Source of the DNA: Bacilli bacterium | GTDB lineage: Bacteria; Bacillota_I; Bacilli_A; RFN20; CAG-826 | Length of the DNA stretch: 64,000 bases | NCBI GenBank assembly: GCA_024408335.1 | Contig: JAKSVB010000002.1 | Coordinates: 90,630 to 154,629, forward strand | Direction: 5' to 3' | Program-made: the position numbers and the translations under genes | The notes under the pieces: generated by a model | What the model saw: only the letters and a program-made list of their open reading frames with translations | Told to the model about the DNA's origin: nothing | Databases searched by the model: none | In this document: positions 1,435-52,440 of the stretch, in pieces | Position numbering within the stretch: position 1 is the stretch's first letter | Layout of the letters: each line of letters begins with the position of its first letter

Positions 1435-1611
1435 ATGTCAGTCAAAACTGTTCTTCGCGAAGGTGAAAACCTCGATGAAGCCTTACGTCGTTTCAAGAGA
1501 AGCGTCAATAAGAGCGGCATCCTCCTCGAATCAAGAAAAAGAGAATTCTATCTCAAAACCGGTCTTCGTAGAAAAATGAAGTCCGAAATGGCCCGTCGTA
1601 AAAAATGGTAA
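1435..1611 (+). CDS. rpsU: 30S ribosomal protein S21 (58 aa; missed by ORF track because <60 aa)
   Basis: Translation [58 protein letters not shown] matches bS21 along its whole length. A rho-independent terminator follows. The track ORF 1376..1579 is an overlapping wrong-frame artefact. Confidence 0.85.
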
Positions 1612-1647: not shown

Positions 1648-1793
1648 CAAATTTTGTGCAAACTGGATTTTCAATCAATCAACCTTCTTATGAAGGTGTC
1701 TTTTTGATGACTTCAGAGCTCATCTTGGGAGTGAAAACGTCATAATCTAAAAAATTTTTAAGTTTTTCGAAAAATTTCTCTTTTCGTCTCTAT

Positions 1794-3017
1794 ATGAAAG
1801 CGATGAGAAATTTTGTTTATCAAGGAGATGAGGATAGCTGCGGCCTTGCTTCCCTCAAAACGCTCCTCTTAGACCTAACTAAGAAAAAAGGTTACCGTTA
1901 CTATAGGCCAGACACTGAGAAGCCGCTTAATCTTGAAGAGATTCGAAGGCTCGCCTGGAAAGAAGGGGTGAACATCGAGTGGAAGAAAGCCCTAAGCAAA
2001 AAGGATATTGTTTGCTGCGAGACTTTTCCTCTCCTGGCTATGTTAGAAGGCGAGAACAAAGGACACTTAGTCTATTTAAAGAAAGGAACGAAAAAGAAGA
2101 TCCTTGTTCTTGATCCTGCTAGCGGACCGAAGTGGTACTTAAGAGAGGAACTCGCTAAAAAGTTCTCTCTTATATATGGTGAGGTTTCACTAATCTCGAA
2201 TGAGAAATGCATCTACAAAAAGCCAAAGATCATACGTCCTATAAGCATGATATTGCCGTGCATCACATCCTTTGTGGGTATTGCGTTCTTATTTGCTTCC
2301 CTCCTATTTATAGGAGATGAGAAAACTCATTTATTTGCCGCAATATGCTTAGCGCTATACGGCGTTTTCACGATTCTCTCGCGTTTTGTAAGCTCAAGAT
2401 TCAGCAAATCGTTTGACAAGAAATGGCTTAAGCATGTTCCGAGTATGGACAAGAAAAAACTTGCAAGGAATTATGAGAGATATTACACGTTTAAGAGCCA
2501 CGTATTCCCTGCTATGACAACTTTATTAGAGTCCGTTTGCTCAGTTTTTGGGATCATGTTTGTCTTTGGAATGAACGATCCGTTTTTCTGTTTGGCGGGT
2601 CTATCCTTGGCGGTTTATCTTTTCGTTGAGAGCCAGTGTTATAGAAAAAAGCAAGAAAAGGAGAAGTGCGAGCTTTCCTTAAAGGAAGAAGACCTTTTTG
2701 ATGCGACTAGATCCAAAAAGGAACAGATGAAATTAATCGGCGAAATCAACGACAAAGCAAGCAAAATAGGGGAGAACACCACTTATGCAAGAGTCATTTA
2801 TCTTGCTGTCATTGGATTCTTGTCAATCATGTCTCCGCTTATAAACGAAAACGTTTCGTTAAATTGCTATCTCTTCCAGTTCTTTGGACTCGTAGGATTA
2901 GGTCAAGCCATACGTTCTCTCTTCTATTTCTTTGAGACAAAAGTCATTAGAGAAAGAGCGTTTATATACTTTTGTGACAATTTCGCAAATAAAGAGAGCT
3001 CAAGATTTAAATCTTGA
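1794..3017 (+). CDS. peptidase C39-like domain fused to a ~6-helix ABC-exporter-like transmembrane domain; no ATPase domain
   Basis: N-terminal Q-x5-C-G (YQGDEDSCGLASLKTLL), then H (GHLVYL) and (I/V)-x-D-P (ILVLDPASG), matching the C39 Cys/His/Asp arrangement. About six hydrophobic segments follow. No Walker A/B motif anywhere in the protein. Confidence 0.55.
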   Translation: MKAMRNFVYQGDEDSCGLASLKTLLLDLTKKKGYRYYRPDTEKPLNLEEIRRLAWKEGVNIEWKKALSKKDIVCCETFPLLAMLEGENKGHLVYLKKGTKKKILVLDPASGPKWYLREELAKKFSLIYGEVSLISNEKCIYKKPKIIRPISMILPCITSFVGIAFLFASLLFIGDEKTHLFAAICLALYGVFTILSRFVSSRFSKSFDKKWLKHVPSMDKKKLARNYERYYTFKSHVFPAMTTLLESVCSVFGIMFVFGMNDPFFCLAGLSLAVYLFVESQCYRKKQEKEKCELSLKEEDLFDATRSKKEQMKLIGEINDKASKIGENTTYARVIYLAVIGFLSIMSPLINENVSLNCYLFQFFGLVGLGQAIRSLFYFFETKVIRERAFIYFCDNFANKESSRFKS

Positions 3018-14347: not shown

Positions 14348-14995
14348 ATGAAAATCGCAAAATTTCAACCTGGTGATGATAAGACCTGCAATGTCTATAT
14401 TATCGGAGAAGAAGGAAAGCCATGCATCGTCGTGGATCCTGGAAGCAACGATAAGGATTTCATTGATAGATATGTCGACAAACATCACGCAGGAGAGATT
14501 CTTGGAATCCTCTTAACCCATGGTCACTATGACCACATCAGAGGGCTTGTTACCCTCAAACACAAATGCACCGTATTCCTTCATGAGGATGAAGCCGAGC
14601 ATTTGGTTGAGCCAGCATATAATGGCAGTGGGTGGCACGAAGAGATGGATGATATTGTCTTAGACAATATAAACACCTATCTTCTTAGCGATGAGGATGA
14701 GATAACTCTTGGAGAATACACATTCAAGATCATCCATACGCCATTCCACACTAGAGGCAGCTCTTGCTACTACGTCGAGAGCGAAAAAGTCCTTTTCTCA
14801 GGAGACACATTGTTCCATTTGGCCGTTGGGAGAACTGATCTTCCTACAGGTTCAAGTAGAAGCATGATGGCTTCTTTATCAAAGCTTGCAGCCCTCCCAG
14901 GAGACGTAAAAGTCTATCCAGGACACGCTGAAAGCACAACAATAGCTAACGAGTTGGCATTCAATCCATACCTTTCTGAGGTTAAATGTAGATAG
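14348..14995 (+). CDS. MBL-fold metallo-hydrolase (YqgX-like)
   Basis: HxHxDH motif LLTHGHYDHIRG with downstream His/Asp ligands, about 215 aa. Confidence 0.8.
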   Translation: MKIAKFQPGDDKTCNVYIIGEEGKPCIVVDPGSNDKDFIDRYVDKHHAGEILGILLTHGHYDHIRGLVTLKHKCTVFLHEDEAEHLVEPAYNGSGWHEEMDDIVLDNINTYLLSDEDEITLGEYTFKIIHTPFHTRGSSCYYVESEKVLFSGDTLFHLAVGRTDLPTGSSRSMMASLSKLAALPGDVKVYPGHAESTTIANELAFNPYLSEVKCR

Positions 14996-15046
14996 TCAAC
15001 TTAATTTGGTATAAAATACCAATTAGATTTTCAAAGGAGAATTAAA

Positions 15047-15604
15047 ATGAACGTTACAGAATTACGCCCTGGCAACTATTTCGAAGATGAAAATACCCTT
15101 TATCAAGTCATCGACATCCTTCTTAACAAAACCGCAATGAGAAAGATGGTTGCAAAGGTCAAAGTTAAAAATGTCCGTAGTGGTGCAATCACCGAACTCG
15201 CACGTAACTCAGGTTACGATGTTACCCTTGTCAGCGTTGGCAAGAGACAAATGCAATATCTTTACGATGGTGGAACAACACTTGTCTTCATGGATCCAGA
15301 AACCTATGAACAAGTCGAAATCTCAAAAACAACTCTCGAAAGAGAAATGAATTTCTTAGCTCCAAACGGAACTGTTACCATCAACTTCTATGATGAAGAA
15401 ATCCTTGGCGTCGAACTTCCAGCAAAAGTCGCTCTCGAAGTCATCGAATGCGAACCAGGCGTCCGTGGTGACACAGTTACAAACGCAGGTTCAAAAGAAG
15501 CAACTCTTGAAACTGGTTTAAAGATCAGAATCCCACTCTTCATCGAACAAGGTGAAAAGGTTATCGTTGATACTGCAAGCGGAAAATACGACAAGAGAGG
15601 CTAA
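15047..15604 (+). CDS. efp: translation elongation factor P
   Basis: Alignable end to end with EF-P (185 aa, KOW-OB-OB). The loop carrying the normally modified residue reads NKTAMRKM instead of the canonical KPGKG. Confidence 0.85.
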   Translation: MNVTELRPGNYFEDENTLYQVIDILLNKTAMRKMVAKVKVKNVRSGAITELARNSGYDVTLVSVGKRQMQYLYDGGTTLVFMDPETYEQVEISKTTLEREMNFLAPNGTVTINFYDEEILGVELPAKVALEVIECEPGVRGDTVTNAGSKEATLETGLKIRIPLFIEQGEKVIVDTASGKYDKRG

Positions 15605-15609
15605 TTAAG

Positions 15610-15834
15610 ATGGTTAGCATGCCAATTGTTGGCTTCATCTTTACATTATTAGGTCTCGCACTCGCCGGTGCTGTTGGCGGCTTCTTCCTTGCTAGATACC
15701 TCATTCAAAAGGAACTCAAGAAGAACCCACCTATTAACGAAAAGCAAATTCGTGCTATGTACGAACAAATGGGCCGTAAGCCTAGCGAAAAGCAAATTCG
15801 TGCAATCATGAATTCTGTCAAAAACAACAAATAA
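15610..15834 (+). CDS. yneF: UPF0154 family small membrane protein (YneF-like)
   Basis: One N-terminal TM helix followed by KKNPPINEKQIRAMYEQMGRKPSEKQIRAIM, matching the YneF/UPF0154 pattern. Neighbours plsY (yneS) as in Bacillus. Confidence 0.75.
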   Translation: MVSMPIVGFIFTLLGLALAGAVGGFFLARYLIQKELKKNPPINEKQIRAMYEQMGRKPSEKQIRAIMNSVKNNK

Positions 15835-15851
15835 GTAAGTTGAAGAACTTA

Positions 15852-15877
15852 AGCCGAAAGAAATTTCGGCTTTTTTT
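15852..15877 (+). terminator. rho-independent terminator after yneF
   Basis: AGCCGAAAGAAATTTCGGCT hairpin plus a T7 run. Confidence 0.75.
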
Positions 15878-15899
15878 AATGTTTTTCGAAAAATTTTGA

Positions 15900-16275
15900 A
15901 TTTGGGCAGTATATGAATGTGAGGACGGTTAAGAACACACTTAGCTAAGTATCTCTAAAAGCTTTATTGTCGTCTTCGTGGCGGGCATCCTTCCCTAATA
16001 GCAATATTAATTAGTCTAAAAGACGGTGGCAAAGCGGATAGAGGTAGTGTTAGTAATCGAACTCAGGCTGACTCCCTTATATATAATAAGGATATAGAGT
16101 CGGTTAAGGCTGCCTAGCTAGCGGCTATAAAAGTCGGCGTCACAGGTTGAGTGCCGTCTCCCTATAAAAAGCCTTTTCCTTCTTCTTTGTGCTTGCTACC
16201 TTTATTTCATTGGAGAAAGTACTCCCTTTTAGCGGCAAAGAAGAGGGAAGAGGTGGAGGGTTCTCAAATTTCCAT
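15900..16275. ncRNA. candidate structured non-coding RNA or long structured leader (class unrecognised)
   Basis: About 390 nt with no ORF of at least 60 aa in any frame. It is visibly GC-richer than flanking intergenic DNA. It contains several hairpins, including a 12-bp stem CCTTCTTCTTTG / CAAAGAAGAGGG at 16179-16238, CGGCG...TGCCG, and CTTATATATAATAAG. Confidence 0.35.
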
Positions 16276-16289
16276 CTATAATAGGACAC

Positions 16290-16748
16290 ATGAAATATAA
16301 TCCTCTTAGATCATCTAACTCATATTACTTCTATCTCATGAGCGCTCTCTACGTCGCTGGGACGGTTGTGCTGTTCCTTTTTAAGGTTCTTGAGAACACT
16401 CCAGCCGTTTGGTTTTACTTCATCTTGTCAAGCGTTGGAGAACTCTATTTTTTGATTACTACAATCATTGAGATTAGAGATTATTTGAAAGGCAAAAAGC
16501 TTGTCATAACAGACAAAGAAATCACCTTCTATTTAGAAGAGGAAAAGAAAACAAAAACCATCAGCGTGGATGATCTTCTTGAATTCAAATACGATAAAAA
16601 AGGAAAGATATCATTCGTATATAAGAAGCATGGAAGAGCCTCATTTGAGTTCCTTGGACACGTCTATAACAAGAAGGAATGCGCTTTATTTGATTCGATA
16701 ATAGAGAAGGTTAGAAACACGGAGGCAGGGGTAAATCTCCGTAAGTAA
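16290..16748 (+). CDS. hypothetical membrane protein, two N-terminal TM helices plus PH-like (bPH/YdbT-like) C-terminal domain
   Basis: Two hydrophobic helices followed by a lysine-rich beta-rich domain (KKLVITDKEITFY...). No SD is visible. TATAAT lies 7 nt upstream of the ATG, so the mRNA may be leaderless. Confidence 0.5.
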   Translation: MKYNPLRSSNSYYFYLMSALYVAGTVVLFLFKVLENTPAVWFYFILSSVGELYFLITTIIEIRDYLKGKKLVITDKEITFYLEEEKKTKTISVDDLLEFKYDKKGKISFVYKKHGRASFEFLGHVYNKKECALFDSIIEKVRNTEAGVNLRK

Positions 16749-16789
16749 TAGGCCTCTAATAACATTAGTTTCTTTGAAGAAATAGTTAA

Positions 16790-16813
16790 GAAGCAGATTT
16801 TCTGCTTCTTTTT
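16790..16813 (+). terminator. rho-independent terminator
   Basis: GAAGCAGATTTTCTGCTTC plus T-run. Confidence 0.75.
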
Positions 16814-16871
16814 ATCTATATTAACTATTGTCCAGTGAGAAAGTGTAGGTGCCATCGAAAGAATACAGGAA

Positions 16872-16893
16872 AAGGCGCCATTCCTGACGCCTT
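16872..16893 (-). terminator. terminator downstream of plsY (AAGGCGTCAGGAATGGCGCCTT on - strand)
   Basis: Inverted repeat AAGGCG/CGCCTT with a weak T-rich tail on the - strand. Confidence 0.5.
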
Positions 16894-16923
16894 ATAGATA
16901 TTTACTTAAAAACTACTAATTAA

Positions 16924-17643
16924 TTACTTCCATTCTAAAGGTTTCTCTTCACCTTTTCTAATTCTTTGGATATTAGCTGAGTGACGAATAACGAGAAGGA
17001 CATAAGCGGAAACCATGGCGATCATCATCTCCCATCCGAAGTAGACACCGCCGCCTGCTCCGAAGTTCCACATAAGAGGATCGAAGAGTTTGTAGTTGCC
17101 TGTTGCCATTGTTATTGTTGCGAACACTCCAGCAATCAAAACAAGAATCGCACCAGAAAGGATTGAAGCCTTTGACATGACTTTCTTTAAGCCGAAGAAA
17201 CTAACGAAGAAGACGACGAGTGAAATGGCAAAACCAGCCCAGCTTGAACCACCGAAAATCGCCATGAAGCAAGCGACTGCCTTTCCACCTTTGAAGTGAA
17301 GCCAAGGTGAGAAGCAGTGGCCGAAGCATGCAGCAGCTTGTGCGAAATATGCATAAAGGACGCCGCCATCAAATAACTTAGCAGGTCCGATTGCGAATCT
17401 TAAGATAGCCCAGACGCTCCAGAAAGCGACAACGTTTTTGGCAATGTCGAGGACCATGACAAGGATTCCGACTTTCTTTCCTAAGACACGACCAGTGTTA
17501 GTTCCGCCTGAATTGTGGGAGCCAAATTCTCTTGGGTCTTTTCCAAAGAAGACTTTTCCAACGACGACGCCTGTTGGGATGCTTCCTAATAAGAAGCCAT
17601 AAACAACGCATCCGATTGCGACAATGATATTTAGTAGTAACAT
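16924..17643 (-). CDS. plsY: glycerol-3-phosphate acyltransferase PlsY
   Basis: N-terminal LLGSIPTG...HNSGGTNTGRVLG acyl-phosphate transferase motifs. About 30 aa longer at the C-terminus than typical PlsY. Confidence 0.85.
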   Translation of the reverse strand: MLLLNIIVAIGCVVYGFLLGSIPTGVVVGKVFFGKDPREFGSHNSGGTNTGRVLGKKVGILVMVLDIAKNVVAFWSVWAILRFAIGPAKLFDGGVLYAYFAQAAACFGHCFSPWLHFKGGKAVACFMAIFGGSSWAGFAISLVVFFVSFFGLKKVMSKASILSGAILVLIAGVFATITMATGNYKLFDPLMWNFGAGGGVYFGWEMMIAMVSAYVLLVIRHSANIQRIRKGEEKPLEWK

Positions 17644-17760
17644 TTTTTACCTCGCCCTAAGCAGACTATTATTAATAATAGGGTCTACTTTTCGTTCTGT
17701 TTCTTTGCTATAATAACTAAAAATTGAGAAATACTCAATATTTGAGGCATTTGAATACAG

Positions 17761-19692
17761 ATGGACGAGATGAATTATACTGCGAAAGACATAGAGGTTT
17801 TATCAGAACTCGAAGGCGTTAGAAAGCGCCCTGGCATGTATATCGGCAGTACCAACCTTAATGGTCTTCACCACTTAGTTTGGGAAATTGTTGATAACGC
17901 TGTGGACGAAGCCGTCAACGGTCATGGTAAAAAGATTACCGTCACCATGATGTCCGATGGATCGATTACCGTCGAAGACGAAGGACGTGGTGTCCCTGTT
18001 GACGTTCATGAAAAAACCGGAATACCAGCTATTCAGTTAATTTACACAACCCTTCATAGCGGTGGTAAATTCAATAGCAAAAACTACAAGACCAGCGCTG
18101 GTTTACACGGCGTCGGCGCTACAGTTACAAACGCTTTAAGCGAAGCTTTGGACGTAACTGTTTTTAGAGATGGAAAAATCCACGAAATCAAATTCGCTAA
18201 CGGCGGACAACTCGTCAGTCCTTTAACCGTTATCGGAACAACCAACAAACATGGCACAAAAGTCCATTTCAAACCAGATCCAACAATCTTCCCTAACACT
18301 AAATTCAGCTGGGATACCATTTATCATCGCTTAGAAGAGAAATCATTCCTTTTAACTGGTGTTCATTTCATTCTTAAAGACCAAGCCTCTGGCAATTCAC
18401 ATGAATTCGTCACCGAACACGGCTTAAGAGAATACGTCGAATCACTCACTGCTGAGAAGACACCTTTGGCAGACACCATTGACTTTATTGATGAAGTCAG
18501 CTCAATCAAAATCGAAGTCGCTATGAAATGGTGCGTCGGTGATTATGGCGAAAACGTCTATAGCTATGCTAACGACGTCCGTACTGCTGATGGCGGTACC
18601 CATGAAACGGGATTTAAGACATCATTAACCAAGATTCTTAACGACTGGGCATCAAATAACGAACTCCTTAAAGGCAACCAATCAATCGATGGTGCGGATA
18701 TTCGTGAAGGCTTAACCGCCGTTCTTTCTGTTCAAGTCCCTGAGAACAAACTCGAATACGAAGGACAAACAAAAGGAAAACTCGGAACCCCAGAAGCTAC
18801 AGCAGCAGTTGCTACAGCAATGGCAGGCTTCCTCCCATATTACTTAACCGAACACAAAGAGTTTGCAGTCGCCTTGATCAAGAAGTGCGCTCAAGCAAAA
18901 GAGGTTCGTGAAGCAGCTAGAAAAGCCCGCGAACAAGCTAGAGGCGCTAAGAAAAAAGTCCAAGACGTCATGATTAGCGATAAACTCGCAAGCGCCCAAA
19001 GCAAGGATTACAAGAATAACGAGCTCTTTATCGTTGAGGGTGATTCTGCAGGCGGCAGCGCAAAATCAGGACGTGATAGACTCCATCAAGCTATCCTCCC
19101 ATTACGTGGTAAACCTTTAAATACCCATAACGTTTCTAACCAAGCCATCATTGATAACCTCGAATTCTCAACGCTTATCCAAACAATCGGCGCTGGATTT
19201 GGTGACGACTTCCATCCTGAACAAAGCAGATATGGAAAAATCATCATCATGACAGATGCTGACACCGATGGCGCTCATATTCAGACTCTTCTCTTAACGT
19301 TCTTCTATAACTACATGAAGCCGTTAATCGATTTAGGCATGGTTTACATCGCTCAACCACCTCTCTATAGAGTTTTCAAAAAGAGCGATCCTTCAAAACA
19401 CATTTACTGCTGGAGCGACGAGGATCTCGAAAAAGCAAAAGCCAAGATCGGTGCCGGTTATGGCGTTAACCGTTACAAAGGTCTTGGTGAAATGAACGCA
19501 GACCAACTCGCTATGACCACAATGAACAAGAAAACCCGTGTTCTCTGTCAGGTCAAAATAGAAGATCCACTTTTAGCAGAAAAGCGCATCAATACCTTAA
19601 TGGGTAAAGACGCTGGCCCACGTTGGAATTGGATTCAAGAGAATGTCACCTTCAACGAGGTTGACGAATTCATTAAGGAAGTGAAGAAGTAA
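17761..19692 (+). CDS. parE: type IIA topoisomerase ATPase subunit; assigned as topoisomerase IV subunit B (GyrB not excluded)
   Basis: GHKL ATPase N-terminus ([17 protein letters not shown]), TOPRIM EGDSAGG, and PLRGK. Divergent from plsY, as yneS-parE-parC in Bacillus. Confidence 0.7.
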
Positions 19693-49117: not shown

Positions 49118-49260
49118 GCTTTTTCCTCCTTATAGCTTAAGACTCGCTCCGTGCGGTTAATTACAAAGTAATTATTAGGGACCGTAGAAATGCGGTTGAG
49201 GCCCTATAGGGAGGGCGACAACGTGATTATCATACACGCGTAAAGGCAACTTGTGAAGAA
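49118..49260 (-). promoter_or_regulatory. putative L21-operon leader (autoregulatory leader upstream of rplU)
   Basis: About 140-nt structured 5' UTR on the - strand between a promoter-like region and the rplU RBS (AAGGAGG). Position is analogous to the Firmicutes L21 leader. I could not confirm the consensus by eye. Confidence 0.35.
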
Positions 49261-49335
49261 AAAACGAGCTTTTTATTATATAAACTTTCTTGGGCACCTT
49301 ATGTGCAACGTGCACACTCATCAAATTTTGGGCTG

Positions 49336-49518: not shown

Positions 49519-49570
49519 AGATTTTTCCTCCTCAATTACATATAGAGGCGAAAATCGAAATTTTTTTCGA

Positions 49571-49599
49571 AAAAAGAAAAACCGCCACAAAGTGACGGT
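49571..49599 (-). terminator. rho-independent terminator after valS
   Basis: On the - strand: ACCGTCACTTTGTGGCGGT plus TTTTCTTTTTT. Confidence 0.65.
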
Positions 49600-52214: not shown

Positions 52215-52440
52215 CTCCTAAAATATAAAAACCGCGCCCAACATAGGGACGCGGTGCGCGGTACCACCCTAATTCCTTATTAACATAAGGCTCTTAGATA
52301 ATCTTTAACGCAGATTGACGGGTATCTCTACCGTTCTATGGTTACGACTCACTTTGATTCCTATCCGCCTTTGCACCATCTAGCGGCTCTCTAAGTAGGA
52401 AGAGCAAAGATCCCTTAACCGTCATTGAACTGATTTATTA
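52215..52440 (-). promoter_or_regulatory. T-box riboswitch leader of valS
   Basis: The - strand carries the T-box consensus GGAATTAGGGTGGTACCGCG (plus coordinates 52251-52276). It overlaps an intrinsic terminator ACCGCGTCCCTATGTTGGGCGCGGTTTTTAT directly upstream of the valS RBS. Confidence 0.75.

What the first reader, a model, noticed from the sequence alone, without database searches (positions are those of the whole stretch)
15885..16289. 390-nt GC-enriched, ORF-free structured region upstream of a small membrane protein gene
This is the largest non-coding gap in the window. It follows the yneF terminator and has no ORF of at least 60 aa, yet contains GC-rich islands with clear stems. These include a 12-bp helix at 16179-16238 and the hairpins CGGCG-N13-TGCCG and CTTAT-ATATA-ATAAG. 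I compared it by eye with tmRNA, RNase P RNA type B, SRP RNA and T-box consensus, and none fit. It could be a novel or divergent structured RNA (6S-like, raiA-like or other large ncRNA) or an unusually long regulatory leader for the downstream leaderless-looking gene.
Basis: seen in the sequence. Interest (0 to 1): 0.55.

Follow-up and report, generated by a model that had tools for sequence, protein, structure and literature searches.

The report
New structured RNA beside membrane-protein gene
The gap holds a previously undescribed, roughly 340-base folded RNA with its own promoter, found only in a small group of uncultured rumen bacteria and always inherited together with the orphan membrane-protein gene next to it.

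Summary
15835-16289 is the largest non-coding gap in the window. Its core has coding-like GC (0.44, against 0.33 for other non-coding DNA), has no conserved ORF, and folds better than shuffles on the + strand only.

Homologous gaps from about 25 contigs of related rumen MAGs fall into three divergent groups with one architecture. It has a 5' three-way-junction domain, two arms, two short palindromic hairpins and a long 3' hairpin. Compensatory changes support it: 8 of 117 pairs in the window's group, 11 of 71 in group B and 32 of 71 for B+C, against 0-8 in slid controls.

A promoter motif (TTTTCGAAAA-N17-TATATG) precedes the element and recurs three times in the window, with none expected. Rfam 15 and ARAGORN find nothing, although Rfam does detect a divergent T-box and an L21 leader elsewhere in the window.

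The downstream gene has an invariant TATAAT 6-7 nt before its start codon and no Shine-Dalgarno, so it looks leaderless. It encodes an orphan protein with two transmembrane helices and a PH-like domain. Two sister lineages lack both the RNA and the gene.

I read it as a new, clade-restricted structured RNA tied to that gene. A stand-alone ncRNA partner (OLE/OapA-like logic) is most likely, and a long cis-acting leader is the main rival. Expression is untested.

The parts
15851..15879 (+). Intrinsic terminator of yneF (UPF0154). It ends the upstream transcription unit.
   Evidence: 9-bp GC-containing stem plus T-run. A hairpin plus T-run is present at the same place in all relatives.
15883..15915 (+). 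Promoter-like motif TTTTCGAAAA-N17-TATATG for the RNA. The predicted start is about 15921-15923.
   Evidence: The same motif occurs 3 times in the window (1764-1796 +, 15883-15915 +, 49539-49573 -), with 0 expected from 100 shuffles. Relatives keep T-run/GAAAA, 17-19 nt, then TATAT[AG] or TATAAG. The start site is inferred from the spacing.
15920..16065 (+). Domain I. Helices P1/P2 (15920-15931 with 16054-16065) and P3 (15934-15938 with 16047-16051). Short palindromic hairpin H1 (15940-15942 with 15947-15949, CUUAGCUAAG). Long arm P4-P6 (15950-15976 with 16020-16046) with a branched tip.
   Evidence: RNAalifold on group A. Compensatory changes include C15926:G16059 to U:A among strains and A:U to G:C in P3 against L009. 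Wobble-consistent changes occur in P4. Groups B and C have the same three-way-junction topology.
16066..16105 (+). Arm H3 (GGCUGACUC...GAGUCGGUU with tip CCUUAU/AUAAGG). It directly abuts the 3' strand of P1.
   Evidence: The equivalent arm in B (CUGUAAUAG...CUAUGACAG) and C varies in length and carries compensatory changes.
16108..16126 (+). Short palindromic hairpin H4 (GGCUGC-CUAGCUA-GCGGCU). In L009, B and C it reads CCGCUUGCAAG(C/U)GG.
   Evidence: It is invariant in all 15 B and C sequences.
16132..16159 (+). Hairpin H5 with a large loop (AGUCGGCGUCA...UGAGUGCCGUCU).
   Evidence: Three pairs have changes on both sides within group A. The stem is rewritten in other groups: GAUGAUG/CAUCGUC in L009, GAGCC/GGCUU and GGGCU/GGCUC in B, GAUCC/GGAUC in C.
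16160..16260 (+). Domain III. Closing helix P7 (16160-16163 with 16257-16260). Long pyrimidine/purine hairpin H6 (16171-16190 with 16235-16254, and 16194-16198 with 16230-16234). Tip hairpin (16212-16215 with 16222-16225). No T-run follows.
   Evidence: In the B+C alignment, 10 of 24 pairs show changes on both sides. Model R2, built from B+C only, hits 16119-16263 as the best match in the 64-kb window (E 0.011) and hits L009 at E 2e-6.
16277..16282 (+). TATAAT -10 box of the downstream gene, 7 nt before its ATG. This predicts a leaderless mRNA.
   Evidence: It is invariant in all 21 loci at 6-7 nt from ATG/GTG, while the spacer sequence varies. Groups B and C add an extended -10 TG. No Shine-Dalgarno is conserved.
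16290..16748 (+). Gene for the 152-aa orphan membrane protein (2 transmembrane helices plus a cytoplasmic PH-like domain). It always co-occurs with the RNA.
   Evidence: No Pfam family. There are 22 clusters in 5.8 billion proteins, and only 2 of 1.84 billion representatives match. AlphaFold2 pLDDT is 78, with 2 helices, 6 strands and a C-terminal helix. All best Foldseek PDB hits are PH/PTB domains, at a weak E of 3e-3.
16788..16810 (.). Bidirectional terminator shared with convergent plsY. It is the first canonical terminator downstream of the RNA promoter.
   Evidence: 10-bp stem with T-runs on both strands.

Best explanation
The gap encodes a previously undescribed, clade-restricted structured RNA on the + strand. 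It spans about 15921-16261 (about 340 nt) in the window and 270-330 nt in relatives.

It is transcribed from its own sigma-A-type promoter (15883-15915). It folds into a 5' three-way-junction domain, two variable arms, two short palindromic hairpins and a long 3' hairpin.

It forms a two-part module with the next gene, which has its own -10 box placed for a leaderless mRNA. That gene encodes an orphan protein with two transmembrane helices and a basic cytoplasmic PH-like domain.

My preferred mechanism is that the RNA is a stable non-coding RNA acting together with that protein as a membrane-tethered ribonucleoprotein. This is the logic of OLE RNA and its downstream-encoded membrane partner OapA.

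**Shown:**
- conservation of the region
- covariation in the helices
- strand
- a recurrent promoter motif
- no match to any known family
- co-presence and co-absence with the gene

**Inferred:**
- that it is transcribed
- where it ends
- that it is separate from the translated mRNA
- that it binds the protein
For: **Structure**
- The + strand folds at z = -3.49 and the - strand at z = -1.23.
- Group A (window, strain variants, L009): 117 pairs, 97.9% paired, 8 pairs changed on both sides, against 0-3 in slid controls and 0 of 500 shuffles.
- Group B: 71 pairs, 98.8% paired, 11 pairs changed on both sides, against 0-3 slid.
- B+C: 96.4% paired, 32 of 71 pairs changed on both sides, against 4-8 slid and 16 shuffled.

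**Strand**
- G-U pairs fill 8-15% of cells: 104 of 682, 89 of 781 and 28 of 351. These would be A-C mismatches on the - strand.

**Homology across groups**
- Model R1 (B only) finds C at E 1e-11 to 1e-14.
- Model R2 (B+C 3' half) finds L009 at E 2e-6 and the window at E 0.011, as its best hit.

**Promoter**
- The motif occurs 3 times in the window, with 0 expected.

**Not a known family**
- Rfam finds nothing at E up to 10 here or in relatives.
- The same search finds a sub-threshold T-box (86.7 bits) and an L21 leader elsewhere in the window.

**Separate translated transcript**
- TATAAT is invariant 6-7 nt before the start codon, with no Shine-Dalgarno.
- Other genes here use a Shine-Dalgarno, for example yneF.

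**Module**
- All loci with the gene carry the RNA.
- Two sister lineages with EF-P 80-82% identical have efp-yneF-plsY with an AT-rich gap, and neither the gene nor the RNA.
- RNA and gene both evolve faster than their neighbours. Against L009, efp DNA is 95% identical, the RNA 72-73% and the gene 65-78%.

**Partner plausibility**
- 12 of 48 invariant protein positions are Lys, Arg or His.
- OapA is encoded immediately downstream of ole and binds two palindromic sequences in OLE RNA (PMC12265935).
- This RNA has two conserved palindromic hairpins.
Against: - There are no expression data of any kind.
- No intrinsic terminator separates the RNA from the gene, whereas this genome otherwise uses canonical hairpin plus T-run terminators. 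Transcripts from the RNA promoter probably run into the gene, as a leader would.
- Co-occurrence is equally what a cis-regulatory leader predicts. Most conserved structures directly upstream of a gene are cis-regulatory (general knowledge).
- PH-like domains usually bind lipids or peptides, not RNA (general knowledge). The fold match is weak (E 3e-3).
- No single-stranded sequence is conserved across all three groups, so there is no obvious active or binding site.
- The alignments hold few independent lineages. Much of the B+C covariation comes from one deep split, on an alignment fitted to the model.
- The absence test rests on only two sister lineages.
Confidence: 0.45

Rival explanations
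1. It is a long, structured cis-acting 5' leader of the 152-aa gene. Transcription from the 15883-15915 promoter continues into the ORF. The fold controls read-through, stability or processing of that mRNA, or modulates or occludes the TATAAT promoter. It could respond to a protein, temperature or another signal.
For: - Same orientation, directly upstream, with no T-run terminator before 16788.
- Strict co-presence and co-absence with the gene.
- Base rate: most such elements are leaders (general knowledge).
- The purine-rich 3' strand of H6 carries GGAGG-like runs paired to a pyrimidine strand.
Against: - No terminator/antiterminator or Shine-Dalgarno-sequestering platform is present. The GGAGG runs lie about 30 nt or more from the AUG, and no Shine-Dalgarno sits at a working distance.
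- The invariant TATAAT at leaderless spacing implies the translated mRNA starts at the AUG and excludes the structure.
- No conserved unpaired core of the kind ligand-binding riboswitches have.
- 270-340 nt in three domains is large for a leader.
Confidence: 0.3
2. It is a stand-alone trans-acting or housekeeping-type ncRNA whose link to the neighbouring gene is only positional. It would have been acquired or lost with the gene as one insertion, and its targets or partners would be encoded elsewhere.
For: - Own promoter.
- Multi-domain fold with variable arms.
- The module looks like an insertion between yneF and plsY, judged against sister lineages.
Against: - RNA and gene stay adjacent in all three divergent groups. 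Both evolve at similarly high rates.
- No second copy or dispersed relatives were found: none in the window and only one, syntenic, match among 120 metagenome pattern hits.
Confidence: 0.12
3. It is a very divergent member of a known RNA class (6S, raiA, OLE, RNase P, tmRNA, SRP or a riboswitch) that Rfam models cannot recognise.
For: Rfam models score low in this lineage. The T-box and the L21 leader both fall just below their gathering scores.
Against: - Those two are still found at E 1e-18 and 2e-4. This region gives only microRNA or terminator noise at E up to 10, in the window and in five relatives.
- ARAGORN finds nothing.
- The sequence changes too fast for a universal RNA: 72-73% identity where efp DNA is 95%.
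- It is absent from sister lineages.
Confidence: 0.04
4. It has no RNA function. It would be a decaying gene remnant, a small-protein gene, a mobile repeat, or DNA-level palindromes such as operators.
For: - Two perfect DNA palindromes are present (CTTAGCTAAG and CCTAGCTAGC here, CTTGGCCAAG and CCGCTTGCAAGCGG in relatives).
- The region evolves fast.
Against: - Pairing is kept by changes on both sides and by G-U wobble on one strand only.
- No reading frame is conserved.
- No other copies exist in the window.
- GC is coding-like, unlike the AT-rich gap at the same place in sister lineages.
Confidence: 0.04

Closest known systems
OLE RNA with OapA (ornate, large, extremophilic RNA of Firmicutes; Rfam RF01071)
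   Same: - A large multi-helix ncRNA in Firmicutes-type bacteria.
- The immediate downstream gene encodes a small membrane protein.
- No terminator lies between the RNA and that gene.
- OapA binds two palindromic sequences in OLE (PMC12265935), and this RNA has two conserved palindromic hairpins.
- The function of OLE is likewise unknown.
   Different: - No Rfam OLE hit.
- About 340 nt rather than about 600 nt.
- OLE has long stretches of highly conserved sequence (PMC9723947 abstract). This RNA keeps almost none across its groups.
- The neighbouring protein has 2 transmembrane helices plus a PH-like domain. It is not a four-helix protein like OapA.
- Distribution is a handful of rumen MAGs, not many Gram-positive species.
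Long structured cis-regulatory leaders of Firmicutes (T-box, riboswitches, protein-binding leaders)
   Same: - A promoter, then a structured RNA, then a gene in the same orientation.
- Strict association with one gene family.
- A true T-box in the same window shows what such leaders look like here.
   Different: - No terminator/antiterminator pair.
- No Shine-Dalgarno to sequester.
- No conserved ligand-type core.
- The gene carries its own -10 box at leaderless spacing.
Orphan large bacterial ncRNAs found through long GC-rich intergenic regions (raiA, ROOL, GOLLD, HEARO; the GC-IGR/DIMPL approach)
   Same: - Detected the same way, as a long intergenic region with GC above the intergenic background (PMC8723152 and PMC8632094).
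- Multi-domain fold supported by covariation.
- Unknown biochemical function.
   Different: - No match to any of these families.
- No prophage, tRNA or IscB-type neighbours.
- Far narrower distribution.
6S RNA
   Same: A non-coding RNA of a few hundred nucleotides with its own promoter.
   Different: 6S is a single long irregular hairpin with a central bubble, about 150-200 nt (general knowledge). This RNA is a multi-branch fold of 270-340 nt. There is no RF00013 hit.

Membership tests
OLE RNA (RF01071) | Match to the OLE covariance model or conserved OLE sequence blocks | tested here: not met
   No OLE hit at the gathering score or at E up to 10, in the window or in five relatives.
OLE RNA (RF01071) | Downstream oapA gene encoding a four-transmembrane-helix OapA protein | tested here: not met
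   The downstream protein has 2 transmembrane helices plus a PH-like domain and no Pfam family. OapA has four transmembrane helices (PMC11332333).
OLE RNA (RF01071) | RNA bound and membrane-localised by the neighbouring protein | not testable with these tools
   This needs binding and localisation experiments.
6S RNA (RF00013) | Covariance-model match, and a long hairpin with a central open-promoter-like bubble | tested here: not met
   No hit. The consensus fold is multi-branched.
raiA motif RNA (RF03072) | Covariance-model match | tested here: not met
   No hit at E up to 10.
tmRNA | tRNA-like acceptor and T-arm plus a tag reading frame | tested here: not met
   ARAGORN finds no tmRNA in the window. 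There is no Rfam tmRNA hit.
RNase P RNA / SRP RNA | Universal conserved core motifs and a covariance-model match | tested here: not met
   No hit. The element is absent from sister lineages, which an essential RNA gene would not be at a fixed locus.
T-box / riboswitch leaders | Match to a known aptamer or leader model | tested here: not met
   None is found here, while the same search finds the valS T-box at 52242-52434 (-) with E 1e-18.
T-box / riboswitch leaders | Expression platform: a terminator/antiterminator pair or Shine-Dalgarno sequestration next to the start codon | tested here: not met
   No T-run follows the 3' hairpin. No Shine-Dalgarno is conserved before the start codon.
Leaderless mRNA (downstream gene) | -10 box about 6-8 nt upstream of the start codon and no Shine-Dalgarno | tested here: met
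   TATAAT-N6-7-ATG/GTG in all 21 loci.
Leaderless mRNA (downstream gene) | Mapped 5' end at the start codon | not testable with these tools
   This needs 5'-end mapping.

The most novel reading that the evidence does not exclude
The RNA and the orphan membrane protein (two transmembrane helices plus a PH-like domain) form a new kind of membrane-anchored ribonucleoprotein in small-genome, host-associated Bacilli. This would be a second, independent invention of the OLE/OapA arrangement. The two palindromic hairpins would serve as sites for protein binding or RNA dimerisation. RNA and protein would co-evolve rapidly.
Probability: 0.25. Interest if true: 0.75.

Novelty: new variant of a known kind. 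Interest (0 to 1): 0.6.

Why it matters
Large, covariation-supported bacterial RNAs with no assigned family are rare, and past examples have exposed unexpected biology.

This one sits in uncultured rumen Bacilli. One related genome scaffold is 1.06 Mb, which suggests small genomes. In such genomes, keeping a 340-nt RNA plus an orphan gene suggests a real function.

It comes with a defined candidate partner protein and a simple two-part locus. That makes the idea of an RNA working with a neighbouring membrane protein directly testable outside the OLE system.

It also shows that Rfam gathering thresholds under-call RNAs in this lineage. A T-box and an L21 leader in the same window both fall just below their cut-offs.

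Tried and rejected
- **Rfam 15.** Gathering threshold on the whole window, and E up to 10 on the region and on five relatives. Only microRNA or terminator noise came up.
- **ARAGORN.** Nothing found.
- **Resemblances seen by eye.** A tmRNA-like 5' GGAUUCGA and an RNase P-like GAUGAAU...ACAG in group B were considered. I dropped them because no model match supports them and the order of the elements is wrong.
- **Metagenome pattern scan.** ACAGN{0,3}CCGCTTGCAAGCGG gave 120 stretches, of which only L126 is a true member.
- **Covariance models.** Model R1 (group B only) does not find the window with default filters and gives only 8 bits with filters off. A 3'-half model (R2) was used instead.
- **Global alignment.** A MAFFT alignment of all three groups was too poor for one consensus fold. 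The structures were therefore derived per group.
- **Structure-aware MAFFT modes.** These are not installed.
- **Other explanations tested.** Small ORF: none conserved. Repeat or mobile element: no other copies.
- **Origin of the protein.** It has no relatives in viral contigs. PADLOC gives nothing significant. Nothing was found by sequence in PDB.
- **Pseudoknot.** A possible pairing between the 5' GGAGG and the H5 loop CCUCC in group B has no covariation for or against it.

Full report
**1. The observation**

The region lies between yneF and a 152-aa ORF.
- yneF (UPF0154, 15610-15834) ends in a canonical terminator at 15851-15879.
- The 152-aa ORF runs from 16290 to 16748.

With ORFs of at least 70 aa as a gene map, 15835-16289 (455 nt) is the largest gap in the window. 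Its core, 15920-16260, has GC 0.437. All non-coding DNA averages 0.334 and coding DNA 0.429.

The region holds only 30-49-aa ORFs. The + strand folds at -127.2 kcal/mol (z = -3.49, 0 of 100 shuffles as good). The - strand has z = -1.23.

The '12-bp helix' is part of a 20+5-bp helix.

**2. Known families**

- Rfam 15 gives no hit at gathering thresholds in the whole window.
- With E up to 10 on 15780-16400 it returns only microRNA-type or terminator noise. The same holds for five related loci.
- ARAGORN finds no tRNA or tmRNA.

This negative result is informative. The same search at an E-value threshold does recover two lineage-divergent elements elsewhere in the window:
- a T-box at 52242-52434 (-), 86.7 bits against a gathering score of 93, E 1e-18, upstream of valS
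- an L21 leader at 49130-49207 (-), 34.7 bits against 36

**3. Relatives**

The exact YneF protein and homologues of the 152-aa protein led to about 25 contigs from rumen or gut metagenomes and MAGs. These are labelled 'Bacilli bacterium' or 'uncultured Erysipelotrichaceae bacterium'.

All carry efp-yneF-[270-400-nt gap]-152-aa gene-plsY(-)-parE. The gaps fall into three groups:
- **Group A:** the window, its strain variants L001-L006, plus L009 and the partial L008.
- **Group B:** L010-L023, L029 and L126.
- **Group C:** L024-L028.

Between groups the sequence is barely alignable, but the plan is the same.

**4. Structure and covariation**

Per-group RNAalifold gives a common architecture:
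- **Domain I:** helices P1 and P2 lead to a three-way junction. One branch is a short palindromic hairpin H1 (CUUAGCUAAG here, CUUGGCCAAG or CUCGGCCGAG elsewhere). The other is a variable-length arm, which in the window is extended to P4-P6.
- **H3:** an arm that abuts the 3' strand of P1.
- **H4:** a second palindromic hairpin (CCGCUUGCAAGCGG in B, C and almost in L009; GCUGCCUAGCUAGCGGC here).
- **H5:** a hairpin with a large loop.
- **Domain III:** closing helix P7 and a long pyrimidine/purine hairpin H6 with a GGG/CCC-type tip.

| Alignment | Pairs | Cells paired | Pairs changed on both sides | Slid controls | Shuffles reaching observed |
|---|---|---|---|---|---|
| Group A | 117 | 97.9% | 8 | 0-3 | 0 of 500 |
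| Group B | 71 | 98.8% | 11 | 0-3 | 0 of 500 |
| B+C (aligned to model R1) | 71 | 96.4% | 32 | 4-8 (shuffle mean 16) | 0 of 500 |

The B+C alignment is fitted to the model, so it leans towards the structure.

Even strains of the window's own species show C15926:G16059 changing to U:A, and wobble-consistent changes in P4.

G-U pairs make up 8-15% of cells. On the - strand these would be A-C mismatches, and pairing would drop to about 83-92% (my arithmetic). Together with the fold z-scores, this assigns the RNA to the + strand.

Homology across the groups is supported in two ways:
- R1 (built from B only) finds C over its full length at E 1e-11 to 1e-14.
- R2 (3' half, built from B+C) finds L009 at E 2e-6. 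It finds the window at 16119-16263 with E 0.011, its best hit in 64 kb.

No reading frame is conserved. The element is not repeated elsewhere in the window.

**5. Transcription signals**

Just after the yneF terminator lies TTTTCGAAAA-N17-TATATG (15883-15915). This exact motif occurs three times in the window, with none expected from 100 shuffles. The other two copies are:
- 1764-1796, whose TATATG lies 6 nt before an internal ATG of a C39-peptidase-like ORF
- 49539-49573 (-), before a 60-aa membrane ORF with a Shine-Dalgarno

Relatives keep T-run/GAAAA, 17-19 nt, then TATAT[AG] or TATAAG. From the spacing, the RNA should start at about 15921-15923. This is an inference.

At the other end, no T-run follows P7/H6. 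The first canonical terminator is at 16788-16810, after the ORF.

The ORF is preceded in all 21 loci by an invariant TATAAT, 6-7 nt from ATG (GTG in three loci). The spacer is variable, groups B and C have an extended -10 TG, and no Shine-Dalgarno is conserved. The N-terminal extensions called in some contigs are not conserved. This is the signature of a leaderless mRNA with its own promoter.

**6. The neighbouring protein and the module**

The 152-aa protein has no Pfam, NCBIfam, PADLOC or PDB-sequence match above threshold.
- Its family has 22 clusters among 5.8 billion proteins.
- Only 2 of 1.84 billion cluster representatives match.
- There are no viral relatives.

AlphaFold2 (pLDDT 78) gives two transmembrane helices, six strands and a C-terminal helix. 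All top Foldseek PDB hits are PH or PTB domains, at weak E-values of about 3e-3.

Twelve of its 48 invariant positions are Lys, Arg or His. The positive-inside rule places the domain in the cytoplasm; this is an inference.

Two sister lineages have EF-P 80-82% identical to the window's, which makes them more distant than group B (86.5-88%). They carry efp-yneF-[280-460-nt AT-rich gap]-plsY-parE, with neither the gene nor any match to R1 or R2. RNA and gene are therefore present together or absent together.

Both also evolve faster than their neighbours. Identities against L009 are:

| Region | Identity to L009 |
|---|---|
| EF-P protein | 99.5% |
| efp DNA | about 95% |
| Flanking genes (DNA) | about 84% |
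| The RNA | 72-73% |
| The 152-aa gene (DNA) | 65-78% |
| The 152-aa protein | 72% |
| Gap after the gene | about 65% |

**7. Interpretation**

Firmly supported:
- It is a real, conserved, + strand structured RNA element.
- It is unknown to Rfam.
- It is restricted to a small clade of rumen Bacilli.
- It is genetically coupled to an orphan membrane-protein gene.

What it does is inferred. I favour a stand-alone ncRNA that works with the neighbouring protein (confidence about 0.45 for the package). The reasons are:
- The translated mRNA appears to start at the AUG and so excludes the structure.
- There is no expression platform.
- The fold is large and multi-domain, with variable arms and no ligand-type conserved core.
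- RNA and protein are co-inherited and evolve fast together.

The closest precedent is OLE RNA. Its immediate downstream gene oapA encodes a membrane protein that binds two palindromic sequences in the RNA and tethers it to the membrane (PMC12265935). This is a functional analogy only, because the membership tests that could be run here fail.

The main rival (about 0.3) is a long cis-acting leader. It is favoured by the lack of a terminator between RNA and gene and by base rates.

Minor rivals are:
- an unrelated trans-acting RNA
- a hyper-divergent member of a known class
- a non-functional or DNA-level feature, which the covariation largely excludes

**8. Limits**

- There are no expression data.
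- Few independent lineages are sampled.
- The absence test rests on two sister lineages.
- Structure strings were derived from the same alignments on which pairs were counted. The slid and shuffle controls mitigate this but do not remove it.
- The group A to B/C homology is supported by synteny, architecture and modest model scores, not by strong sequence similarity.

Noticed in passing
window 52242-52434 (-): T-box leader upstream of valS (861-aa ORF, 52205-49620, -). It carries AGGGUGGUACCGCG, a terminator and an AGGAGG Shine-Dalgarno. It scores 86.7 bits against Rfam's gathering score of 93, so the default scan misses it.
   Followed up: partly
window 49130-49207 (-): Ribosomal protein L21 leader (RF00559), just below threshold at 34.7 bits against 36, E 2e-4. 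It explains most of the GC-rich gap at 49118-49335.
   Followed up: partly
window 1764-1796 (+) and 49539-49573 (-): Two further copies of the promoter motif TTTTCGAAAA-N17-19-TATATG, which contains the palindrome TTTTCGAAAA. None is expected by chance. They may be a lineage-typical promoter form or a shared regulator site linking these units to the RNA.
   Followed up: partly
window 1794-3017 (+), 48118 (-), 28187 (-): Other leaderless-looking genes. A -10-like box lies 6-7 nt before an ATG, and no Shine-Dalgarno was seen by eye in the short stretches printed (not scanned for). One is a C39-peptidase-like 407-aa membrane protein whose real start may be the ATG at 1803. Leaderless initiation may be common in this organism.
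   Followed up: no
window 15940-15949 and 16113-16121; L009, groups B and C at the equivalent hairpins: H1 and H4 are perfect palindromes. In most relatives their centres are GGCC and UGCA. In the window's species both have become AGCU (UAGCUA). Self-complementary loops could mediate RNA dimerisation, H1-H4 kissing, or binding of a dimeric protein.
   Followed up: no
L009 against window 14560-19290: L009 shares 99.5% EF-P identity with the window but only 72% identity in the 152-aa protein and 72-73% in the RNA. The module diverges much faster than its surroundings. This could reflect relaxed or diversifying selection, or exchange of the module by recombination.
   Followed up: partly
L150-L153 (sister lineages), 4783 to about 5240: At the same place between yneF and plsY, these genomes have a 280-460-nt AT-rich gap with no called gene and no match to the RNA models. 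This is either the empty site or the decayed remnant of the module.
   Followed up: partly
window 1435-1611 (+): A 58-aa ORF that I recognised by eye as ribosomal protein S21 (rpsU); it was not checked against Pfam. It accounts for the second-largest apparent gap, 1351-1793.
   Followed up: yes
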